DNA of 64,000 nt from a virus: the IMG/VR virus record IMGVR_UViG_3300015241_000015, positions 17,926 through 81,925 of that record; one strand, given 5' to 3'. Positions 5,069-44,758 of this stretch are shown in pieces; positions within the stretch are counted from its first letter, which is position 1; each line of letters opens with the position of its first letter. The notes under the pieces are model-generated. The model did no database searches and was not told the origin of the DNA. It was given only the letters and a program-made list of their open reading frames with translations. A program made the position numbers and the translations under genes.

Positions 5069-5482
5069 TCATGCGCTTTCCTTCTTGAAAATCACAACCA
5101 TACTGGGGAACGGGGCTGGCTGAATCGATCCATTGAATTTCAATCGGCCGCGAATGAAGCGAACCTCACGGGCTTGCGGTAGCACCAAATCGTGAAACCA
5201 AGGTGATGACGTTCTTGCCGGTATCAGATACACCGCCAGATCGGCTTCCCGGCCACGCTCCAGCCATTCCCTAATCCCTGGGCCGTAAGGTGGATTGCAA
5301 AACACCCGCCGGCCCGTCCAGGAAACAAACAGCGGCGCCAACCCGTCCTCGATTCCACCCAGCGGGCAAGGATCGAAATCGAAGTGGAATTCCTCGTTGA
5401 GCGACCTATAAAGCCACTCAGGCGTCCTCCACTCCGCCGTGGTCGAACTGAAAATTACCCGGGATGGCATGGCTGATTTCAA
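5069..5482 (-). CDS. dam: Phage DNA N6-adenine methyltransferase (Dam-type)
   Basis: EWRTP...FDFDPC...VFCNPPYG catalytic motif...LIPARTSSPWFH. Confidence 0.88.
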   Translation of the reverse strand: MKSAMPSRVIFSSTTAEWRTPEWLYRSLNEEFHFDFDPCPLGGIEDGLAPLFVSWTGRRVFCNPPYGPGIREWLERGREADLAVYLIPARTSSPWFHDLVLPQAREVRFIRGRLKFNGSIQPAPFPSMVVIFKKESA

Positions 5483-6057
5483 GTCGTTTTAACTTCTACG
5501 AATCGCGTGACTCGAAAGGTTCCAAACGGGCCACGTTTCTCAGGGCGAAAATCTCCAATGCCCGTACTCACTCCGCCCTCGGCCAGAAGCTGATGGGCTG
5601 TCTCAATCGGAAGCTGATTGTCGTCAATTTGCAGATTGAACTTCGCTGACCACTGGTCGAACCGCGGGCGGTGTCTCATCACGCGCCCCTTTGTCGCCGG
5701 GATCGTGACAGGCCGCGAATCAACCTCGAATCTCTTGGCTGGGCCACCATCTCCGTTCAGAATCGTGACGGTATCGCTGCATATTCGAACGGCCGCCGGC
5801 ACGACAAATTTCAGCGTTTTCCGGGATGAGCGCATCTTGTGATTCGCCCCAGCCGCTCCCATCACGTTCGGAATCGCAAACGCCGAAAAGTAGAAGTGGC
5901 CTGCATCATCAATGTATGCAACCCGCCTCGCGGCTTCGAGTGGATCTTCATGTTGCGCCAATTGCGTTCTCGTGGGCTTTGCCAATTGTGCGCGTTCATC
6001 GAACCGTTGAATAAGCAAAGGCGTCAGTCCAGCAATTTCACATTCGATCAGTTTCAT
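5479..6057 (-). CDS. RAMP/Cas7-like RNA-binding protein (Vipr-like)
   Basis: N-terminal strand IECEIAGLTPLLI and C-terminal Gly-rich loop GIGDFRPEKRGPFGTFRV typical of the RAMP fold; adjacent to a GGY-NN repeat RNA. Confidence 0.75.
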   Translation of the reverse strand: MKLIECEIAGLTPLLIQRFDERAQLAKPTRTQLAQHEDPLEAARRVAYIDDAGHFYFSAFAIPNVMGAAGANHKMRSSRKTLKFVVPAAVRICSDTVTILNGDGGPAKRFEVDSRPVTIPATKGRVMRHRPRFDQWSAKFNLQIDDNQLPIETAHQLLAEGGVSTGIGDFRPEKRGPFGTFRVTRFVEVKTT

Positions 6058-6105
6058 TGGGTGGATCTCCTTTCAGGTTACGTAAATTTATTTCAGTTCC
6101 ATGGC

Positions 6106-6135
6106 TTGCCAATTCCTTCCCCTGTTTTGTAAAGT
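6106..6135 (+). promoter_or_regulatory. Sigma70-like promoter for the pentamer-repeat RNA
   Basis: TTGCCA (6106-6111), 18 bp, TAAAGT (6130-6135), about 10 nt before the first repeat. Confidence 0.55.
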
Positions 6136-6145
6136 TGTTGACCTT

Positions 6146-6274
6146 GGCGCTGCGAGGCGCGGCACTGCATGGCAAGGCAGGGCACGGCCTGGCACGGCGT
6201 GGCCTGGCAAGGTCGGGCATGGCTTGGCTCTGCACGGCAAGGCAAGGACAGGCGGGGTGTGTTAAGCCCCGCCT
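6146..6274 (+). ncRNA. GGY-NN pentamer-repeat guide RNA candidate (23 units + 3' hairpin)
   Basis: 23 units in perfect 5-nt register at 6146-6260 (17 GGC, 2 GGT, 3 TGC, 1 GGA, each plus a variable NN); promoter upstream; hairpin AGGCGGGG/CCCCGCCT followed by ATTTATTT. Confidence 0.8.
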
Positions 6275-6282
6275 ATTTATTT
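6250..6282 (+). terminator. Intrinsic terminator-like hairpin closing the pentamer RNA
   Basis: AGGCGGGG-tgtgttaag-CCCCGCCT-ATTTATTT. Confidence 0.6.
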
Positions 6283-6294
6283 GCGTGCAATGGC

Positions 6295-7728
6295 TCACTT
6301 CTCCTCCTTGCTTGGAGGGGTCTTGTCGGATGATTTTTGGTGATGCGGATTTGATGCGGATTCTGCTTTATTTTGGTCTATTTTGCTGATGGATGTCGTT
6401 GAAGCTATTGATTCTATTGAGGTTGATTCCAACTCTGGATCAGCATATCGGGGTTCGAATCCCTGGGGGGCAGCCAAATCTTTTGAACAACTTACAGACT
6501 TTTCATTCGTTTTTGATTCGCCCTCGTCTCCTCCATAGTGCGGTTTTGATGCGGATTGACTCTTCTTCTTTCCCTCTTCTTTGGTCTCTTTTGGGGCCTC
6601 GTCGTCCAGGACTTGCACCCACTCCGCATTTGCGCCGGGGATCAGGTGGCCGTAAATGTCGATCGTGACCGAAATACTCTTATGCCCCATCTGCTTTTGC
6701 ACATAGGCCGGAGAGACTCCCGCCTGGATCAGCAGGCTGCCGTAAGTGTGGCGAAGGTCATGAAACCGGAAGCGACGAATACCGGCTTGCTCTAGCGCTG
6801 GATCGAGGTATCGCTTGGCGATATTGTCCGGGAATATCGGTCCACCGGTCTCCGATGGGAACACCAGATCGTCGGAAATACTGGTCTTGCCATCCATGAA
6901 GGCAGGCAGAAGGCGTTCATCTCTCGCCACCACCAGCGCCGTCCGTAATTGTTCTGTCATATCAACGCGACGGGACTCGCCGCTCTTGGGAGAACCAAAG
7001 GTTTTGGATTTCACGTCATAAGTTCTCTCGACCAGGATGAAGCACTCCGGCCCAACACATTCCCCGAACTGAATATGCCCCCACTGCAAGGCGATCAATT
7101 CACCCTTGCGAAGCCCAGCCCGTAAAGCGGCCAGGAAAAAAACGGAGTATCCTGGGCATATCTCGCCAACTGCCGTCAGGAAACGTTGCGCCTCGCTGCG
7201 TGTCATCGAATCCCCTTTAGCTTTGCCCTTTTGCTTCTTGTTGAATTTTCCGATCCGTGAAGCGGGATTGGAAGCAATAATGCCATCTTCGACGGCGGCA
7301 TTCAGACAGGCGCGCAATGCCCCGTATGTTAGGCGTACCGTGTTGCGCGCAAGCTTGCCATTCGATAAATCGCCAACAAAAGACTTCACTTCCTCGCGGG
7401 TTATTTTGGTTAAAGCCTGTGCGCCAAACCTGGGGACCACGCGAAGCCTGAGTTGCTCCTCGTAACTGCCCCAGCTTCTGTGTTTGATTTCCCCTTTGCG
7501 CCCACGAAGCCAGGCGGCGGAATACTGCGAAAATGTTTGCTCTTTGCACGCTTCTTCTTTCGTTTCGAGAAAGCCTAACTGGCCCAAAGCGGCCATACCT
7601 TCGGCTCGCTTCCGAATCTGCTCTGCCAGTTTCGCGTCACCAGTCTTCAGCGATTTCGAGGAGCGTTTTCCTTTGTGGTTAACAAATAACCACCACACGC
7701 CTTTCACTTTTTTCAGTTTGACTCCCAC
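6295..7728 (-). CDS. int: Tyrosine recombinase / phage integrase
   Basis: AGLRKGELIAL, PKSG, FHDLRHTYGS, MGHKSISVTIDIYGH catalytic R-K-H-R-H-Y set; N-terminal arm-binding segment. Confidence 0.95.
   Translation of the reverse strand: MGVKLKKVKGVWWLFVNHKGKRSSKSLKTGDAKLAEQIRKRAEGMAALGQLGFLETKEEACKEQTFSQYSAAWLRGRKGEIKHRSWGSYEEQLRLRVVPRFGAQALTKITREEVKSFVGDLSNGKLARNTVRLTYGALRACLNAAVEDGIIASNPASRIGKFNKKQKGKAKGDSMTRSEAQRFLTAVGEICPGYSVFFLAALRAGLRKGELIALQWGHIQFGECVGPECFILVERTYDVKSKTFGSPKSGESRRVDMTEQLRTALVVARDERLLPAFMDGKTSISDDLVFPSETGGPIFPDNIAKRYLDPALEQAGIRRFRFHDLRHTYGSLLIQAGVSPAYVQKQMGHKSISVTIDIYGHLIPGANAEWVQVLDDEAPKETKEEGKKKSQSASKPHYGGDEGESKTNEKSVSCSKDLAAPQGFEPRYADPELESTSIESIASTTSISKIDQNKAESASNPHHQKSSDKTPPSKEEK
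6341..6557 (+). repeat. Integrase arm-type binding site repeats (TGATGCGGATT x3)
   Basis: Copies at 6341-6351, 6352-6362 and 6547-6557, plus a degenerate copy near 6536, flanking the att core. Confidence 0.7.
6432..6476 (+). other. attP core: 3' half of tRNA-Gln(CUG)
   Basis: ACT-CTG-GA anticodon loop, T-arm CGGGG-TTCGAAT-CCCTG, acceptor strand GGGGCAG-CCA; no 5' half present; lies inside int. Confidence 0.85.
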
Positions 7729-36830: not shown

Positions 36831-38096
36831 TTAGTTGGTCACAAAAAATACGTCATAGGCAGTGCGTCCGACTTCCGACGCTTCGTCTCGCCGATCACGT
36901 TTTATGCCTTGATTGACCCGGGCCTTATAGCGGAACTGGTTTCCGAATTCGTCAGTCCGGCGTGATTCGCCATATGCCAGACTGAGCGAGTAAACGCCCA
37001 GTTCCGGCAGGGTATGCAACTCTTCCGGTTGGGATATCCCGTCGTGGTTTGAGTCGATCCATAGGCGTAACCGCGAGAATACCGCGTCATTCTCGTCGAT
37101 GATTCCATCTCCGTTGCCGCCCTGGTCCAGTTCGTCCCACTCGGCCAAAGCCAGAAATCCATTAGCGTGCCTAGTCTTATCCTGTGCCGCGAAATTGCTG
37201 AACAGGTCTTTGCCGCTATGCACCATGCCATCGCCTTCTGGTAAGGCAAGGAAGGCGTTATGGAAGCCAGCGGATGTCCATGAAAGTTGGATTGGACGCC
37301 CATCGCCACGAATGTCAAAGGTTACTCCGTCGGCGAAAGAAGTCATATGAAAACCTTCGCCTTCGGTGTCGATGAGGATCGGATCACAGCCATCTCCAGT
37401 GCTCAGTAATGGGTCAATATTACCTTCATTTCCGCACTTTCCCCCCCCACCGCCGCCTCCGCCGCCTCCACCTGAAGGCGGTGGGTATTGGCTGGCTACT
37501 TGCAGATCGTCGCAAAGGCTACCGTGATTGGGGGCTTCAGTTCCAATACTATCTGGGATATTACGGCCTTGGTCGTTGGGTCCAGAGATTTGGTTCATAA
37601 CAGTCTGGCCGGAGGATTGAGCGCCACCTGTTACATCCTTGAGGCCCATGCTATGGCCAATCTCGTGCATGGCAACCTTCTTGAAAATGGTGCTATATCC
37701 AACTAAGGATGTGGGGTTATAGATTGGTTTCCCATCTGCTCCGTTATTGTTGATACCAATCGTTGTACTAGCAGAGTCAACACTGCTGGATGAATTTATC
37801 GTCGTTCTGGCGCCAGCAGTCGAGCCATCAGGAGTTGTTCCGTTATTCCAGGTCCAGTCTGGAGTCTGGGAACCGGTCGCTTCAGTGAATGTGACGTTGG
37901 AACCGTTGTGGGCATTTGCGGTGTTCCATTCGTCAAACCCTTGCCGAACTTGTGTTTTCTCTGTGTCTGATAAGTTTCCAAGTGAATAGGTGTGTGTGCT
38001 TCCTTGCGCCCAATTGACTCCTGTCGTGGCGGGACAATCGGCGAAAGCGAGCACGGGAGACACACTTAGGCATAGTACTGCTATGATATTTTTCAT
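36831..38096 (-). CDS. Secreted metzincin-like metalloprotease with Gly linker and C-terminal Asp-rich Ca-binding domain (moron)
   Basis: Signal peptide; HEIGHSMGLKD zinc motif; TVMN Met-turn; poly-Gly linker; DPILIDTEGEG...LRLWIDSNHDGISQPEEL. Confidence 0.8.
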   Translation of the reverse strand: MKNIIAVLCLSVSPVLAFADCPATTGVNWAQGSTHTYSLGNLSDTEKTQVRQGFDEWNTANAHNGSNVTFTEATGSQTPDWTWNNGTTPDGSTAGARTTINSSSSVDSASTTIGINNNGADGKPIYNPTSLVGYSTIFKKVAMHEIGHSMGLKDVTGGAQSSGQTVMNQISGPNDQGRNIPDSIGTEAPNHGSLCDDLQVASQYPPPSGGGGGGGGGGGKCGNEGNIDPLLSTGDGCDPILIDTEGEGFHMTSFADGVTFDIRGDGRPIQLSWTSAGFHNAFLALPEGDGMVHSGKDLFSNFAAQDKTRHANGFLALAEWDELDQGGNGDGIIDENDAVFSRLRLWIDSNHDGISQPEELHTLPELGVYSLSLAYGESRRTDEFGNQFRYKARVNQGIKRDRRDEASEVGRTAYDVFFVTN

Positions 38097-41173: not shown

Positions 41174-42361
41174 ATGGCGTGGACTTGTAACGATTGCGGA
41201 CTAGTACGAGAGAAACCCGAGAAGCGCATCCCCACAGGCTGGAAGAAAATCCCGGCGCATGAAACTCGACTGGAGGCGCTCTACTGCCACGCCTGCCTCT
41301 TGAAGCGCTACTCCCTGCGCGCCATTACCATTCCCGTGGCTTCACCACTGGACTGCGACTGGAAAGAACTGGACGCCAAGCTGGCATCGATGTGGCAAAT
41401 GACCACCCAGATGTCCAACTGGATCATGACGCAACTCTACTCCCGCGATACCATGCGCGTGAACTCGACAGACAAGCTTGCGCCCATGCCGCGCATTTAT
41501 CTCTACCCAGAACTGCGAGTCAAGTGGCCGCAGATGCCCAGCCAATGCACGGCCAGCCTGGAGCAAAGCGTAAGCAAAAAATATCGGGCGCTCCGTCGCT
41601 TCGTGATTGGAAGCTACAGTAAGAGCCTGCCGTCAATGCGCTACCCGACTCCCTTCCCGATCCCAGCCCAGGGCTGGTCGGTGTTCATCGACAACCAATG
41701 TCCGGTGGTCAGTGTGCGGATTGGGGATAGCCGAATGAAACTGCGATTGCGGGGTGGATTCCGCTATCGCCGGCAACTCGGAGCCGTGAAGGAAATGATC
41801 TCGGGCGCGGCCATGACCGGGGAGTTGGCCATCTTCCGCAATCGCGATGAGATTCTGGTCAAACTGGTGGCGTGGTTGCCGCGGCTGGCGCAGAAGAAAC
41901 GCGATGGCGACCTGATAGTCCGCACCACCAAAGAGTCTCTCCTATGCGCGCTCAACGCCAAAGATGAGGTGTTATGGAATTACAACGCCGATCATATCCT
42001 CAAATGGCAGAGCGAACACCGCCGCCGACTGCAACGTTGGGCAGAAGACCAAAAATATGAGCAGCGCCCGGTTCCAACCTTCGCCGCATGGCGCGAGATT
42101 ATGGTGGAGAGGCAACGCGACCGGATGGACAGCGCTTGTCATCAAATCGCGGCGCAACTGATCGGCTACGCGGCCCGCCGCAATTTCGCGCAAGTGATCT
42201 ACGACGATTCAGATACTTCGTTCGCGGCCGAGTTCACATATTTCAAATTGCGGCAATTGATTGAGGAGAAAGCAAATTATGAGGGGATAATTTTTATTCA
42301 CGCAAATCAGGCCACATCTGTTGTAAAATCTGAAACGTTGCCGGACAAGGCAACTGAATAA
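41174..42361 (+). CDS. Nuclease-dead TnpB/Cas12f-like RNA-guided protein with N-terminal Zn finger
   Basis: CNDC...CHAC Zn ribbon; SLPSMR..PFP WED-like segment; bridge helix/RuvC-II RMDSACHQIAAQLIGYAARRNFAQVIYDD; FTYFKLRQLIEEKANYEGI; RuvC-I DxG replaced by LIVRTT; no RuvC-III; abuts repeat array. Confidence 0.75.
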   Translation: MAWTCNDCGLVREKPEKRIPTGWKKIPAHETRLEALYCHACLLKRYSLRAITIPVASPLDCDWKELDAKLASMWQMTTQMSNWIMTQLYSRDTMRVNSTDKLAPMPRIYLYPELRVKWPQMPSQCTASLEQSVSKKYRALRRFVIGSYSKSLPSMRYPTPFPIPAQGWSVFIDNQCPVVSVRIGDSRMKLRLRGGFRYRRQLGAVKEMISGAAMTGELAIFRNRDEILVKLVAWLPRLAQKKRDGDLIVRTTKESLLCALNAKDEVLWNYNADHILKWQSEHRRRLQRWAEDQKYEQRPVPTFAAWREIMVERQRDRMDSACHQIAAQLIGYAARRNFAQVIYDDSDTSFAAEFTYFKLRQLIEEKANYEGIIFIHANQATSVVKSETLPDKATE

Positions 42362-42375
42362 AAGAAGAATTTTCA

Positions 42376-42492
42376 TGCTACCGACAAGCTGAGCTGCGGA
42401 ACCGTCTGATACGTTTACCGATCAGCCGCGAGCAGAGAAGCCGCTAAGCGCTACGGATATCGTCCCTTGTGGATGCGGCCCGTAGGGTGACC
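42376..42492 (+). ncRNA. Structured scaffold (omega/tracr-like) or leader, copy 1, ending in anti-repeat CCCGTAGGGTGACC
   Basis: Starts 15 nt after effector stop; homologous to 44471-44588 with a compensatory stem change. Confidence 0.7.
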
Positions 42493-42528
42493 TTTTGACA
42501 ACTCAATATGGGCGCTCCGGGGTCCCTA

Positions 42529-43730
42529 GGTCACTGCGGGGGAACTCTTGGGGTGATAATCGTGGTCGCCTCGGTTCGACTCTGTGCAGTCACTTCGGGG
42601 ACGACTGGTGCGGTCACTTCGGGGATAACCGCCATCGTCACCTCTGGCATTGCTCTTAAATGAAAATCGCTCACCTCGGGTGACGCGCTCTAGGGATCGT
42701 GGTCACTGCGGGTAAAAACGGATGATGGTCGCCTCGGGCTTGACGATTTCGATCACTTCGGGTTGCTGTTGGGATGGTCGCTTCGGGGACGACTGGCGCG
42801 GGTCACCTCGGGTCGACTGGCAAGGCGTCACTTCGGGTCTATCAGATTTGGTCGCCTCGGGGCCGTATCTTCGCTGCTATATTCAAGCGGTTACCTCGGG
42901 TATGTGTCTGTGTTCTTGACTGCGCCTACTGGTCCACTTCGGGACGATGCGACCATGGTCATCTCGGGAAATGTGCCGAGGTCACTTCGGGTTGAGCCTG
43001 ATGGCCCAAAAGTCACCTCGGGATAATCTGTGTGGCTGTCCTTCAATCCAATGGTCACCTCGGTATGGCGCCTGAGCAGTTCACCTCGGGCCAGAGTACC
43101 ACTGCCAACAGTTCTGGTCACCTCGGGCCGGATGCTTTCAATCGATGGTCACCTCGGGACAGGCAAGGTCACTTCGGGTACACCCTGAACCGTCTTTACC
43201 ACTGGCAAAAATCTGGTCACCTCGGGACGCGGTCAAGCCATAAGCGGTCACTTCGGGAGGTCACTTCGGGAAAAGCGACCAATGCAGTCACCTCGGGATA
43301 TCCTCGGATCTAGCAACGGTCACTTCGGGATGGAGGGAAGTCATTGGCTCATTTGGCCAAAGCACCCGTGAGGTGACCTAAATACAAAATGGTTACCTCG
43401 GGAGTAGGGATATGGTCTTCTCTCTCAAAGTAGCGGCACCTGAGGTGACCTAAAGACAATTCGGTCACTTCGGGGCAATGATACATCAAGGTCACTTCGG
43501 GAAGAAAATGGCCAGGAAACGCTAGCGCCATTGGGTCACTTCGGGGAGGCGCTCCTTTCAAAAGAAACAAAACTGGTCACTTCGGGAAGGATTCGTACAA
43601 GGCCCGGTCACTTCGGGAACGTTGGCACATGGGTCACTTCGGGAGTATTGCAATTTGGTCACTTCGGGTTATGCCCATGTCGATATGGGTTGGTCACTTC
43701 GGGCTAAGCGCGATTGAAGGTCACTTCGGG
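42529..43730 (+). CRISPR. Atypical CRISPR-like array: about 38 copies of 12-nt GGTCACYTCGGG, spacers 1-36 nt, including two full palindromic repeats (43365-43402, 43439-43474)
   Basis: Repeats counted by eye from 42529 to 43719; spacers mostly unique, many 12-15 nt. Confidence 0.85.
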
Positions 43731-43770
43731 ATGAGACTATACCTCTTGACGGCCATGACACAATCAAGTC

Positions 43771-44373
43771 ATGGCCAAGCCACTCATCAACGATACCCAC
43801 GGCAATACTTGGCGAGTGTCCGCTGACATTGCCGGAACTCTTCTGGCAACCTTCGTCGCCAGCCAATCCACCATCCCGCTCTACATGTCCGAACGAAGCG
43901 CGCCGGAGACGGTGTACGAAGTAAAGATCCTGCCCAACGGCTTCATTGGAACTTTCTTGGTTCCTAACGCCAAGACCCATGGAGCGAGCGAAGTATGGCT
44001 GGACACCCCTGATCCGACCATCTTCTACTTCTTGCAAATCAAAGGCGGGATACTGCAAGTGCAAATCAATCAGCCCTTCGGAACCCCGCTGGTGGCCGGC
44101 CAACTCTACCAGAACGATGGAACTACACCGATCGCACTCCAGCCTGGCGGGATTGGAACGCCGGTGACTATGCCGGTCCAGACTCAAGGCGAAAACCTGG
44201 GGCTATGGGTGGCGGGTTGTGGGCACTGGTTCACCAACTGGGATATTTTCTCAGCACAGATCTCGGGGCAGACCTCGGCTCTGATATGCTGCCCAGTGTG
44301 CTATTACATTCAGCGGGTGATTACGCCGTACTCGTTGATCCACACCGACGCCAACATGATTATTTTTGCGTGA
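43771..44373 (+). CDS. Hypothetical 200-aa protein with C-terminal GCGH/CCPVC motif, embedded between array repeats
   Basis: Intact ORF; repeat at 43719-43730 upstream and AGTCACTTCGGG at 44374-44385 right after its stop. Confidence 0.75.
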   Translation: MAKPLINDTHGNTWRVSADIAGTLLATFVASQSTIPLYMSERSAPETVYEVKILPNGFIGTFLVPNAKTHGASEVWLDTPDPTIFYFLQIKGGILQVQINQPFGTPLVAGQLYQNDGTTPIALQPGGIGTPVTMPVQTQGENLGLWVAGCGHWFTNWDIFSAQISGQTSALICCPVCYYIQRVITPYSLIHTDANMIIFA

Positions 44374-44470
44374 AGTCACTTCGGGCGGTGGTCTTGGGAT
44401 GCGGCAGAGCAGGCACGAAAAAGCCTGGAGCCGCTCGCGAAGATGTAAGTGAATGAAAATGAACTTTTTA

Positions 44471-44588
44471 TGCTACCGACAAGCTGAGCCGCATCACCGT
44501 CTGGAACGTTTACCGACCAGCCGCTCGCGGAGAAGCCGACAAGCGTCACGGATATCAGCCACTTACGGCTGCGGCCCGTGAGGTGACC
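44471..44588 (+). ncRNA. Structured scaffold or leader, copy 2, ending in CCCGTGAGGTGACC
   Basis: TGCTACCGACAAGCTGAGC...GCGGCCCGTGAGGTGACC, homologous to copy 1. Confidence 0.7.
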
Positions 44589-44758
44589 TAAAGATCAAAC
44601 GGTTACCTCGGGATCACGGTCTTGGATGTGATCCTCCATCCCGTTATCCGTGAGGTGACCTAAAGACAATTCGGTCACTTCGGGCAGGACTATCTGCCGG
44701 TCGCTTTCAAGCGTGACGGCCCCCTGAGGTGACCTAAAGACAAAATGGTTACCTCGGG
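44575..44758 (+). CRISPR. Mini CRISPR array: three 36-38 nt palindromic repeats (CC..GAGGTGACC-TAAAGA..-GGTYACYTCGGG), two spacers of about 35-37 nt
   Basis: Repeats at 44575-44612, 44648-44684 and about 44722-44758. Confidence 0.85.

What the first reader, a model, noticed from the sequence alone, without database searches (positions are those of the whole stretch)
6146..6260. The variable dinucleotides decode to a foreign tyrosine-integrase motif in codon register
Seen: NN series GC GA GC AC AT AA AG AC CT AC GT CT AA CG AT TT TC AC AA AA CA GG GT. Read as codon positions 1-2 with the third base skipped, it gives A-[DE]-A-T-[IM]-[NK]-[RS]-T-L-T-V-L-[KN]-R-[IM]-[FL]-S, i.e. ATINRTLTVLKRMF. 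This closely resembles the ATxNRxLxxLKRMF helix of tyrosine-recombinase core-binding domains. No TA/TG dinucleotide (potential stop) occurs in 23 units (about 5% chance if uniform). This phage's own Int has ARNTVRLTYGALRACL there, so it is not a self-target. Inference: the guide silences the integrase of a competing prophage or satellite and, by skipping wobble positions, is immune to synonymous escape.
Basis: inference. Interest (0 to 1): 0.88.

Follow-up and report, generated by a model that had tools for sequence, protein, structure and literature searches.

The report
Phage VIPR guide RNA, integrase-like target

Summary
Positions 6146-6260 hold 23 in-phase pentamers (G/T)G(C/T)NN, and the NN series is exactly as listed. 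The repeat is a vrRNA gene of a VIPR system (bioRxiv 10.64898/2026.04.26.720920). The divergent 192-aa neighbour (5479-6057, minus strand) is a Vipr protein: its family profile matches PDB 36pp "SUSP1 Vipr protein" at E 1.1e-16, and its model has a Cas7/Csm3 fold.

The integrase reading has statistical support. Against an integrase profile, the decoded peptide scores best on the core-binding-domain helix: 21.2 bits against 11.6 +/- 2.0 for unit permutations, 4 of 8000 as good. The antisense reading and a shifted register give nothing. Two related phages carry guides that decode to the integrase HxLRH and catalytic-Tyr motifs. The phage's own integrase is not a target (12/42).

No natural target with at least 80% NN match was found in IMG/VR, JGI metagenomes, 185,579 species genomes or 401 host-family genomes. 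The best partial hits (9-11 units) are at chance level, and only one family of them is an integrase.

The host is an Acidobacteriota (Terriglobales) soil bacterium. Unusually, the array lies on the strand opposite vipr, with its own promoter and terminator. This scan has already noted VIPR arrays in at least 7 other genomes, so this is a new member of a known kind.

The parts
5479..6057 (-). vipr gene: 192-aa Vipr protein, a minimal RAMP/Cas7-like RNA-binding subunit
   Evidence: phrog_4652, no Pfam family. phmmer to PDB 36pp_D 'SUSP1 Vipr protein' gives E 1.6e-6. A profile of 20 homologues gives E 1.1e-16 over the full length. AlphaFold model pLDDT 85.8; Foldseek top hits are Csm3/Cas7 of type III-A and VII complexes, E about 1e-6, prob 1.00. 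The invariant C-terminal G-loop is GIGDFRPEKxGxFG.
6085..6112 (-). sigma-70-like promoter for vipr (TTGGCA-16-TAAATT), back to back with the vrRNA promoter
   Evidence: Consensus scan, 9 of 12. An RBS GGAGA and the ATG at 6057 follow. Consensus match only, not shown to function.
6106..6135 (+). sigma-70-like promoter for the vrRNA (TTGCCA-18-TAAAGT); predicted start about 6141-6143, 3-5 nt before unit 1
   Evidence: Consensus scan, 9 of 12. Inference; no RNA data.
6146..6250 (+). vrRNA guide region: units 1-21 of (G/T)G(C/T/A)NN. The GGY triplets are the Vipr-binding scaffold and the NN pairs are the specificity positions.
   Evidence: Rule from bioRxiv 10.64898/2026.04.26.720920 and .720927.
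6250..6283 (+). 3' tail of the vrRNA: intrinsic terminator, a 9-bp stem AGGCGGGG(T)/CCCCGCCT plus ATTTATTT. Units 22-23 of the array (6251-6260) are its 5' arm.
   Evidence: Terminator scan. The RNA fold shows the terminal hairpin; the repeat part folds no better than shuffles, z -1.66.

Best explanation
The element is the single vrRNA gene of a VIPR (Viral Interference Programmable Repeat) system. It is carried by a temperate phage of soil Acidobacteriota (Terriglobales).

Identity shown here:
- The neighbouring 192-aa protein is a Vipr, with a Cas7-like RAMP fold.
- The RNA gene is a 21-23-unit GGY/NN array.

Mechanism, taken from the published SUSP1 work and inferred for this locus:
- Vipr protomers polymerise along the RNA, one per pentamer.
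- Each protomer buries the GGY triplet and presents the two N bases.
- The filament binds double-stranded DNA whose sequence reads NN-x-NN-x..., and blocks transcription.

Specific to this locus:
- The RNA is transcribed divergently from vipr, from its own promoter.
- It ends at an intrinsic terminator built partly from the last two repeats.

Read in the sense direction, the guide spells A-D/E-A-T-I/M-N/K-R/S-T-L-T-V-L-K/N-R-I/M-F/L-S-T-... . This fits the conserved helix of the N-terminal core-binding (SAM-like) domain of tyrosine integrases. The most likely target (my estimate about 55-60%) is therefore the integrase gene of a rival temperate phage or satellite in the same host. It would be hit at codon positions 1-2, so synonymous mutations cannot escape. 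The target gene itself was not found.
For: Vipr identity:
- PDB 36pp 'SUSP1 Vipr protein', E 1.1e-16, full length.
- full-length tblastn hits at 25-29% identity in phage records, chiefly Escherichia/Salmonella/Shigella phages of the SUSP1 kind (several named Felixounavirus), plus Gordonia, Mycobacterium and Pseudomonas phages.
- Csm3/Cas7 fold.

Array:
-.
- In 53 of 80 IMG/VR loci that encode a homologue, GGYNN arrays lie within about 10-70 nt of the gene.
- The same pairing occurs in Mycobacterium phage Quico gp57.

Mechanism: bioRxiv 10.64898/2026.04.26.720920.720927 and 10.64898/2026.10.15.759431.

Promoter and terminator.

Host: the 34-nt tRNA-Gln(CTG) 3' half in the phage attP matches more than 120 Acidobacteriaceae/Terriglobales genomes exactly.

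Integrase reading:
- The degenerate decoded peptide was scored without gaps against an HMM of 31 integrase ORFs from fetched loci plus the window's own integrase; loci found with the guide were excluded.
- The best of about 350 offsets is the core-binding helix 'saatvnrelsalrallnlake', at 21.2 bits. The second-best offset scores 8.6.
- Nulls: unit permutations 11.6 +/- 2.0, with 4 of 5000 and 0 of 3000 as good; base shuffles, 2 of 400.
- Units 10-21 alone place themselves exactly in register with units 1-9.
- The antisense decode and a shifted codon register show no signal.
- An in-frame hit, perfect over 9 units, lies in the helix YADATINRTLGALSKAL of an integrase.
- Guides of related phages (Vipr 64-65% identical) decode to V-K-T-T-Q-R-Y-A-H-L-S and D-L-R-F-H-D-L-R-R. 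These are the integrase catalytic-Tyr and HxLRH motifs, and they score above every one of 1588 shuffles.

No self-target: the best match in the phage's own genome is 26/46, equal to the null.
Against: - No target with at least 80% NN match was found. Searched: IMG/VR with exact windows of units 1-8, 4-11, 8-15 and 14-21; JGI metagenomes with units 1-10; 185,579 species genomes with units 4-13 and 8-17; 401 Acidobacteriaceae genomes with units 1-14 and up to 3 mismatches.
- A word search of 5.8 billion protein clusters with the decoded peptide found only 2 candidates sharing words, and none scored.
- Pfam and PHROGs give nothing for the 21-aa peptide.
- Only one protein family was tested against shuffles, and it was chosen after seeing the peptide.
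- Expression of the RNA is not shown; no RNA run holds the locus.
- The array is on the strand opposite vipr, unlike all 53 relatives that have arrays.
- At 21-23 units it is longer than the 9-16 units reported for the SUSP1 and P. fulva clades.
- No vap accessory gene was recognised.
Confidence: 0.85

Rival explanations
1. It is a genuine VIPR vrRNA, but the integrase likeness is coincidental. The real target would be another gene, a promoter or a non-coding site of a rival element or of the host.
For: No integrase target was found in any collection. The longest perfect runs, 11 units, lie in an unrelated ORF (L366/L368) and in an alphaproteobacterial membrane-protein gene (L370/L371). The integrase family was chosen after the peptide had been seen. 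Published VIPR targets are varied and include lysis-lysogeny regulators and other VIPR loci.
Against: The in-register placement on the core-binding helix has p of about 5e-4 to 5e-3 against two kinds of shuffle. The second half of the guide falls independently into the same register. Related guides decode to two other integrase hallmark motifs.
Confidence: 0.3
2. It acts as a decoy or redirecting vrRNA. As a stand-alone transcription unit, its RNA would load onto the Vipr of another co-infecting phage (or onto its own) and divert it, as F5 satellites do with solo vrRNAs.
For: It has its own promoter and terminator and sits on the opposite strand to vipr, unlike the 53 relatives with arrays. 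Solo vrRNAs that redirect VIPR are described in bioRxiv 10.64898/2026.10.15.759431.
Against: An intact vipr lies 88 nt away with a back-to-back promoter. This is the only array in the genome, so it is the only guide that Vipr could use. No decoy site was found in 401 host-family genomes.
Confidence: 0.08
3. It is a decayed or inverted remnant of a vrRNA array that is no longer expressed or used.
For: The orientation is inverted relative to all relatives. Four of 23 units depart from GGY: three TGC and one GGA. No target was found and there is no RNA evidence.
Against: The phase is kept perfectly over 115 nt with no indel. A promoter-like site lies at the right distance and a strong terminator follows. 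vipr is intact and carries all family-invariant residues. The paper reports that vrRNAs often show internal degeneracy.
Confidence: 0.05
4. It works as a DNA-level element and not as an RNA: for example a protein-binding centromere or origin repeat, or a G-quadruplex or R-loop-prone tract.
For: The tract is G-skewed with GG every 5 nt and sits in an intergenic region next to attP.
Against: In relatives the arrays are strictly strand-specific with respect to vipr: 53 of 53 loci, about 90 arrays. They pair with a RAMP RNA-binding protein. In SUSP1 the arrays were shown to be RNAs that co-purify with Vipr.
Confidence: 0.02

Closest known systems
VIPR systems, characterised type II examples (Escherichia phage SUSP1, Pseudomonas fulva prophage); bioRxiv 10.64898/2026.04.26.720920 and 10.64898/2026.04.26.720927
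   Same: The protein is homologous to SUSP1 Vipr (profile E 1.1e-16) and has a Cas7-like fold. The RNA is made of tandem GGY/NN pentamers next to the gene. The system is phage-borne and does not target its own genome. The 1-nt skip code places the skipped base on codon wobble positions.
   Different: Only about 27% identity to the SUSP1-type proteins. There is a single array of 21-23 units, against 9-16 units and four vrRNAs in SUSP1. The array is on the opposite strand with its own promoter. The 3' tail is a plain terminator hairpin, not the conserved pseudoknot. No vap gene was recognised. The host phylum is Acidobacteriota. The VIPR type (I-VII) was not determined.
SUSP1 vrRNA4 targeting the excision recombinase of F5 satellites; bioRxiv 10.64898/2026.10.15.759431
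   Same: The guide reads codon positions 1-2 of a recombinase gene of a rival mobile element, so synonymous change cannot escape. Here the decoded guide fits a conserved integrase helix.
   Different: There the target was found in 119 satellites and tested by qPCR and plaque assays, over an 18-bp, six-unit footprint. Here the footprint would be about 63 bp, the target gene is unknown and nothing has been tested.
Cas7 backbone subunits of class 1 CRISPR effectors (Csm3 of type III-A, Cas7 of type VII, Cas7-11)
   Same: Closest solved folds to the 192-aa protein (Foldseek E about 1e-6, TM 0.5-0.6). Both have an RRM core with a glycine-rich loop, and one protomer binds each RNA repeat unit.
   Different: CRISPR Cas7 binds 6-nt segments of a contiguous spacer and flips every sixth base. 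Vipr binds 5-nt units, hides three bases and pairs two. There is no CRISPR array, no cas1/cas2 and no other cas genes nearby.
Solo (orphan) vrRNAs of satellites and VIPR-null phages; bioRxiv 10.64898/2026.10.15.759431
   Same: A vrRNA that forms its own transcription unit and is not part of the vipr operon.
   Different: Here an intact vipr sits 88 nt away and is transcribed divergently.

Membership tests
VIPR system | Vipr protein homologous to characterised Vipr | tested here: met
   phmmer E 1.6e-6. A profile of 20 homologues matches PDB 36pp_D 'SUSP1 Vipr protein' at E 1.1e-16, aligning positions 1-184 with 1-188. tblastn gives full-length hits at 25-29% identity in phage records, chiefly SUSP1-type Escherichia/Salmonella/Shigella phages.
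VIPR system | Minimal RAMP fold: single RRM core, glycine-rich loop, thumb | tested here: met
   AlphaFold2 model pLDDT 85.8, pTM 0.80. Foldseek top hits are Csm3/Cas7 chains, E 1e-6 to 1e-4, prob 1.00. The invariant G-loop is G166-I-G-D-F-R-P-E-K-x-G-x-F-G. The thumb and helical bundle were not examined residue by residue.
VIPR system | vrRNA gene of tandem GGY/NN pentamers beside vipr | tested here: met
   23 in-phase units, 19 of them GGY, lie 88 nt from the vipr start. The arrangement is atypical because the array is on the opposite strand, whereas all arrays in 53 homologue loci are on the vipr strand.
VIPR system | Invariant structured 3' tail capping the repeat tract | tested here: inconclusive
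   A 9-bp terminator hairpin follows and overlaps the last two units. No pseudoknot was seen. Close relatives end in a T-run before the vipr RBS instead, so the tail is not conserved.
VIPR system | Accessory vap gene in the locus | tested here: not met
   The gene that overlaps the vipr stop is a Dam-like N6-adenine methyltransferase (PF05869). It is present near vipr in only 1 of 80 relatives. No neighbour is shared across the clade. The paper calls vap typical, not universal.
VIPR system | RNA is expressed as a discrete small RNA and binds Vipr | not testable with these tools
   No RNA sequencing run holds the locus. The promoter and terminator are consensus matches only.
VIPR system | A natural target obeying the 1-nt skip rule with at least 80% NN match | tested here: not met
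   The best overall matches are 26-29 of 46 positions, equal to the shuffle level. The collection scans needed exact runs of 8-10 units, so a target with scattered mismatches could have been missed.
VIPR system | No self-targeting of the carrier genome | tested here: met
   The best 1-nt-skip match in the 81.9-kb genome is 26/46. The shuffled-guide null has mean 25.6 and maximum 29.
   21.2 bits at the helix offset, against a null of 11.6 +/- 2.0. Unit permutations reach it in 4 of 5000 and 0 of 3000 trials; base shuffles in 2 of 400. The antisense reading and a shifted register give no signal.
   The only integrase hit is perfect for units 1-9 and then random, 26/46 overall (L326/L328). Its relatives all read ...TLGALSKAL. 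Its only relative among the species genomes is a Pseudomonadota MAG.

The most novel reading that the evidence does not exclude
This soil-phage VIPR clade may aim its guides systematically at the universally conserved motifs of tyrosine integrases, not at one particular rival. The motifs are the core-binding helix here, and the HxLRH box and the catalytic-Tyr motif in relatives. Reading only codon positions 1-2, one guide would then tolerate the diversity of many competitors' integrases and act as a broad anti-integration or anti-excision weapon. That would explain why no single exact target is found. The divergent, self-contained vrRNA unit would be a new locus architecture.
Probability: 0.25. 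Interest if true: 0.6.

Novelty: new member of a known kind. Interest (0 to 1): 0.42.

Why it matters
VIPR was described only in 2026, and its natural targets are known for just a few clades of enterobacterial and Pseudomonas phages. This locus extends the system to a temperate phage of soil Acidobacteria. It also shows a different layout: one long guide, transcribed divergently, with its own promoter and terminator.

Together with two related phages, it gives sequence-only evidence that recombinase genes may be a recurrent VIPR target. That generalises the one experimentally studied case, SUSP1 against F5 satellites.

For the scan, it shows that a reader working from raw sequence recovered the published recognition code. 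It also shows that decoding NN series against protein-family profiles can suggest a target class when the target itself is absent from the databases.

Tried and rejected
- Rfam gathering search of the whole window: no family.
- ARAGORN on the window: no complete tRNA; only the attP half of tRNA-Gln is present.
- My first idea was a TRAP-like ring protein binding a periodic RNA, or a DNA repeat such as an origin, centromere or G-quadruplex. I dropped it once the neighbour proved to be a Vipr and the preprints had been read.
- Exact-window scans for the 1-nt-skip target gave only chance-level hits: IMG/VR units 1-8, 8-15, 14-21 and 4-11; metagenomes units 1-10; species genomes units 4-13 and 8-17. 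Hit counts of 6, 14, 23, 13, 3, 2 and 0 are what database size predicts. Shuffled-guide controls could not be run on the collections because scans are capped.
- 401 Acidobacteriaceae genomes, units 1-14, up to 3 mismatches: 0 hits. Three single host genomes: 0 hits.
- All 369 fetched loci and the phage's own genome under skip 0, 1 and 2: nothing above shuffles.
- Following the one integrase hit: its relatives in 5.8 billion protein clusters and in the species genomes all carry ...TLGALSKAL. The only genome relative is a Pseudomonadota MAG.
- The guide was read out as a peptide with the translate tool's custom code (P0001, 21 aa; P0016, 41 aa, whose last 20 residues are meaningless read-through added to reach the size limit). 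Pfam and PHROGs gave no hit. The protein word search found 2 candidates and none scored. A first try with 21 aa was under the tool's size limit.
- Exact 32-nt piece of the array in IMG/VR: no other contig carries this guide.
- The 10-unit pattern of a relative's catalytic-Tyr guide in IMG/VR: no hit.
- Sequencing runs: no RNA holder listed. Read laying was not used, because contigs cannot show a transcript.
- Search for a vap gene by synteny with 80 relatives: none shared.

Full report
**What is there.** Positions 6146-6260 of the plus strand consist of 23 consecutive 5-nt units with no indel: 17 GGC, 2 GGT, 3 TGC and 1 GGA, each followed by two variable bases. A six-unit GGCNN pattern with up to two mismatches matches 17 overlapping times here and 0.01 times in shuffles of the window. 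It is the only such array in the whole 81.9-kb virus record from which the window comes.

**Surroundings.**
- A sigma-70-like promoter (TTGCCA-18-TAAAGT, 6106-6135) precedes the array by about 10 nt.
- A 9-bp GC-rich hairpin with a T-run (6250-6283) follows. Its 5' arm is made of units 22-23, so the guide proper is probably units 1-21.
- Back to back with that promoter, a second promoter-like site points leftward to a 192-aa gene (5479-6057, minus strand).
- To the right, convergent with the array, lies a tyrosine integrase (6295-7728, minus strand). Its 3' extension contains the 3' half of tRNA-Gln(CTG), which is the attP site.
- That 34-nt tRNA piece matches more than 120 Acidobacteriaceae/Terriglobales genomes exactly. 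The phage is therefore a temperate phage of soil Acidobacteriota.

**What it is.** A blastn search picked up a similar array of about 50 units in Mycobacterium phage Quico. That array sits directly upstream of gp57, which is weakly similar to the window's 192-aa protein.

I then collected 80 IMG/VR loci that encode homologues of the protein. In 53 of them GGYNN arrays lie within about 10-70 nt of the gene, upstream and/or downstream, always on the gene's strand. At that point my reading was a periodic RNA bound by an oligomeric protein.

Earlier notes of this scan named the system and a preprint, which I read. VIPR systems consist of a phage-encoded minimal RAMP protein (Vipr) and vrRNAs made of alternating GGY/NN motifs. 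The NN dinucleotides specify a double-stranded DNA target in which one base is skipped between pairs. That base falls mostly on the codon wobble position, and binding silences transcription (bioRxiv 10.64898/2026.04.26.720920). Cryo-EM shows one Vipr protomer per pentamer hiding the GGY (10.64898/2026.04.26.720927).

I tested membership independently:
- The 192-aa protein matches PDB chain 36pp_D, "SUSP1 Vipr protein", at E 1.6e-6.
- A profile of 20 homologues matches it at E 1.1e-16 over the full length.
- The AlphaFold model (pLDDT 85.8) finds Csm3/Cas7 subunits of type III-A and type VII CRISPR complexes as its closest solved folds.

The locus is therefore a VIPR system and the array is its vrRNA gene.

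Reading the NN pairs as codon positions 1-2 with the third base skipped is the published 1-nt skip rule. The idea that this defeats synonymous escape, and that a rival's recombinase is the target, has been demonstrated for SUSP1 vrRNA4 against F5 satellites (10.64898/2026.10.15.759431). What had to be tested is the specific claim about this guide.

**Does the guide spell an integrase helix?** I built an HMM from 31 integrase ORFs in the fetched loci plus the window's own integrase, leaving out every locus that had been found with the guide. I scored the degenerate decoded peptide without gaps at every offset, taking the best allowed residue at each position.
- For units 1-21 the best of about 350 offsets is the core-binding-domain helix ("saatvnrelsalrallnlake") at 21.2 bits. 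The next best offset scores 8.6.
- Permuting the units gives 11.6 +/- 2.0, with 4 of 5000 and 0 of 3000 permutations as good. Shuffling the bases gives 2 of 400.
- Units 10-21 taken alone also place themselves best at exactly the offset that continues units 1-9.
- The antisense decode shows nothing. A control register with the skipped base at codon position 1 scores below its own null.
- The phage's own integrase matches 12 of 42 positions at that helix, which is random. The whole genome holds no match above shuffles.
- The absence of TA/TG is real but weak: p = 0.135 with the NN usage seen in 5,726 units of other arrays.

**Independent support from relatives.** The same scoring was applied to 794 distinct 12-unit windows from arrays of other loci. 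It picked out guides in L143/L144 that decode to V-K/N-T-T-H/Q-R-Y-A-H/Q-F/L-S, and one in L131 that decodes to D/E-L-R/S-F/L-H/Q-D/E-L-R-R. These are the catalytic-tyrosine and HxLRH motifs of tyrosine recombinases. They score 21.0 and 19.4 bits, above the maximum (18.7) of 1588 shuffles. The Vipr proteins of those phages are 64-65% identical to the window's.

**Is there a real target?** This is where the claim fails its own test. Collection scans accept only exact patterns, so I searched windows of 8-10 units and scored the rest of the guide in each hit.

| Collection | Units searched | Result |
|---|---|---|
| IMG/VR | 1-8 | 6 hits, none extends |
| IMG/VR | 8-15 | 14 hits, none extends |
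| IMG/VR | 14-21 | 23 hits, none extends |
| IMG/VR | 4-11 | 13 hits, none extends |
| JGI metagenomes | 1-10 | 3 hits, none extends |
| 185,579 species genomes | 4-13 | 2 hits, none extends |
| 185,579 species genomes | 8-17 | 0 hits |
| 401 Acidobacteriaceae genomes | 1-14, up to 3 mismatches | 0 hits |

- The hit counts are what database size predicts, and no hit exceeds 29 of 46 positions.
- One family of hits (L326/L328) is in frame in the core-binding helix of an integrase, YADATINRTLGALSKALRLA. It is perfect for units 1-9 and then random.
- All relatives of that integrase read ...TLGALSKAL. Its only relative among the species genomes is a Pseudomonadota MAG, so it is not a credible rival of an Acidobacteria phage.
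- Longer perfect runs, 11 units, occur in unrelated genes.
- A word-indexed search of 5.8 billion protein clusters with the decoded peptide found nothing. Pfam and PHROGs give nothing for so short a peptide.
- A target with scattered mismatches, or one from unsampled soil phages, would have escaped all of these searches.

**How it most likely works.**
- Shown: the identities of the protein and of the repeat.
- Taken from the SUSP1 studies: filament assembly on GGY, NN-x pairing and transcriptional silencing.
- Inferred here: divergent transcription from 6106-6135 to the terminator, and an integrase of a competing temperate element as the target. I put about 0.9 on the VIPR identity and about 0.55-0.6 on the integrase target class.

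**Unusual points.**
- The array is on the strand opposite vipr, with its own promoter and terminator; all 53 relatives with arrays have them on the vipr strand.
- It has 21-23 units, against 9-16 reported for the SUSP1 and P. fulva clades.
- Its tail is a plain terminator.
- No vap gene was recognised. The overlapping downstream gene is a Dam-like methyltransferase that relatives do not share.

**Novelty.** VIPR is already described, and this scan has noted VIPR arrays in at least seven other genomes. This is therefore a new member of a known kind, with a variant layout and a plausible but unproven target class. It is of moderate interest.

Noticed in passing
window 6295-7728 (int) and 6440-6476 (tRNA-Gln 3' half): The attP core, the 3' half of tRNA-Gln(CTG), lies inside the 3' extension of the 477-aa integrase ORF. 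Integration would therefore replace the C-terminal tail of Int. Two TGATGCGGATT repeats flank it (6341-6362 and about 6546).
   Followed up: partly
L143 3800-3899, L144 3790-3854, L131 1078-1232: Guides of related VIPR loci decode, in sense and with 1-nt skip, to the catalytic-Tyr motif (VKTTQRYAHLS) and the HxLRH box (DLRFHDLRR) of tyrosine integrases. They score above all 1588 shuffles. No exact 10-unit target of the L143 guide was found in IMG/VR.
   Followed up: partly
L002 2466-2715 (Mycobacterium phage Quico, NC_028751 about 37300-37550): An array of about 50 GGCNN units lies directly upstream of gp57, a distant Vipr homologue, in cluster F (Cheoctovirus) mycobacteriophages. In phage Florinda the array is annotated as a 'hypothetical protein', probably spuriously.
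   Followed up: partly
L169 about 2760-2957 and similar loci L168-L179: Long arrays of 31-46 units are interrupted every 17 units or so by phase-breaking 7-mers GGTACAT/GGTACTT. These are probably boundaries between individual vrRNAs. Array length varies among phages whose Vipr proteins are near-identical.
   Followed up: no
L139 2890-3001 and other close relatives: Upstream arrays in relatives end in GG(T/A)TTTTTTT immediately before the vipr ribosome-binding site. The vrRNA 3' end and the vipr 5' UTR appear to be joined there, unlike in the window.
   Followed up: no
window 5069-5482 (minus strand): A 137-aa Dam-like N6-adenine methyltransferase (PF05869, phrog_111) overlaps the vipr stop codon by 4 nt. 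It is not conserved next to vipr in relatives (1 of 80).
   Followed up: partly
L366 2428-2456 and L368 8445-8473; L370 3346-3374 and L371 3579-3607: Two pairs of homologous sequences match 11 consecutive guide units perfectly while differing at most skipped positions. One pair is an unidentified ORF end, the other an alphaproteobacterial membrane-protein gene. They show how far chance matches to conserved coding sequence can reach in databases of about 1e12 bases.
   Followed up: yes
window 41174-44758: Earlier first-reader notes on this genome describe a TnpB/Cas12f-like ORF followed by an array of about 38 12-nt mini-repeats (GGTCACYTCGGG). I did not examine it. If real, the phage carries a second RNA-guided system.
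   Followed up: no
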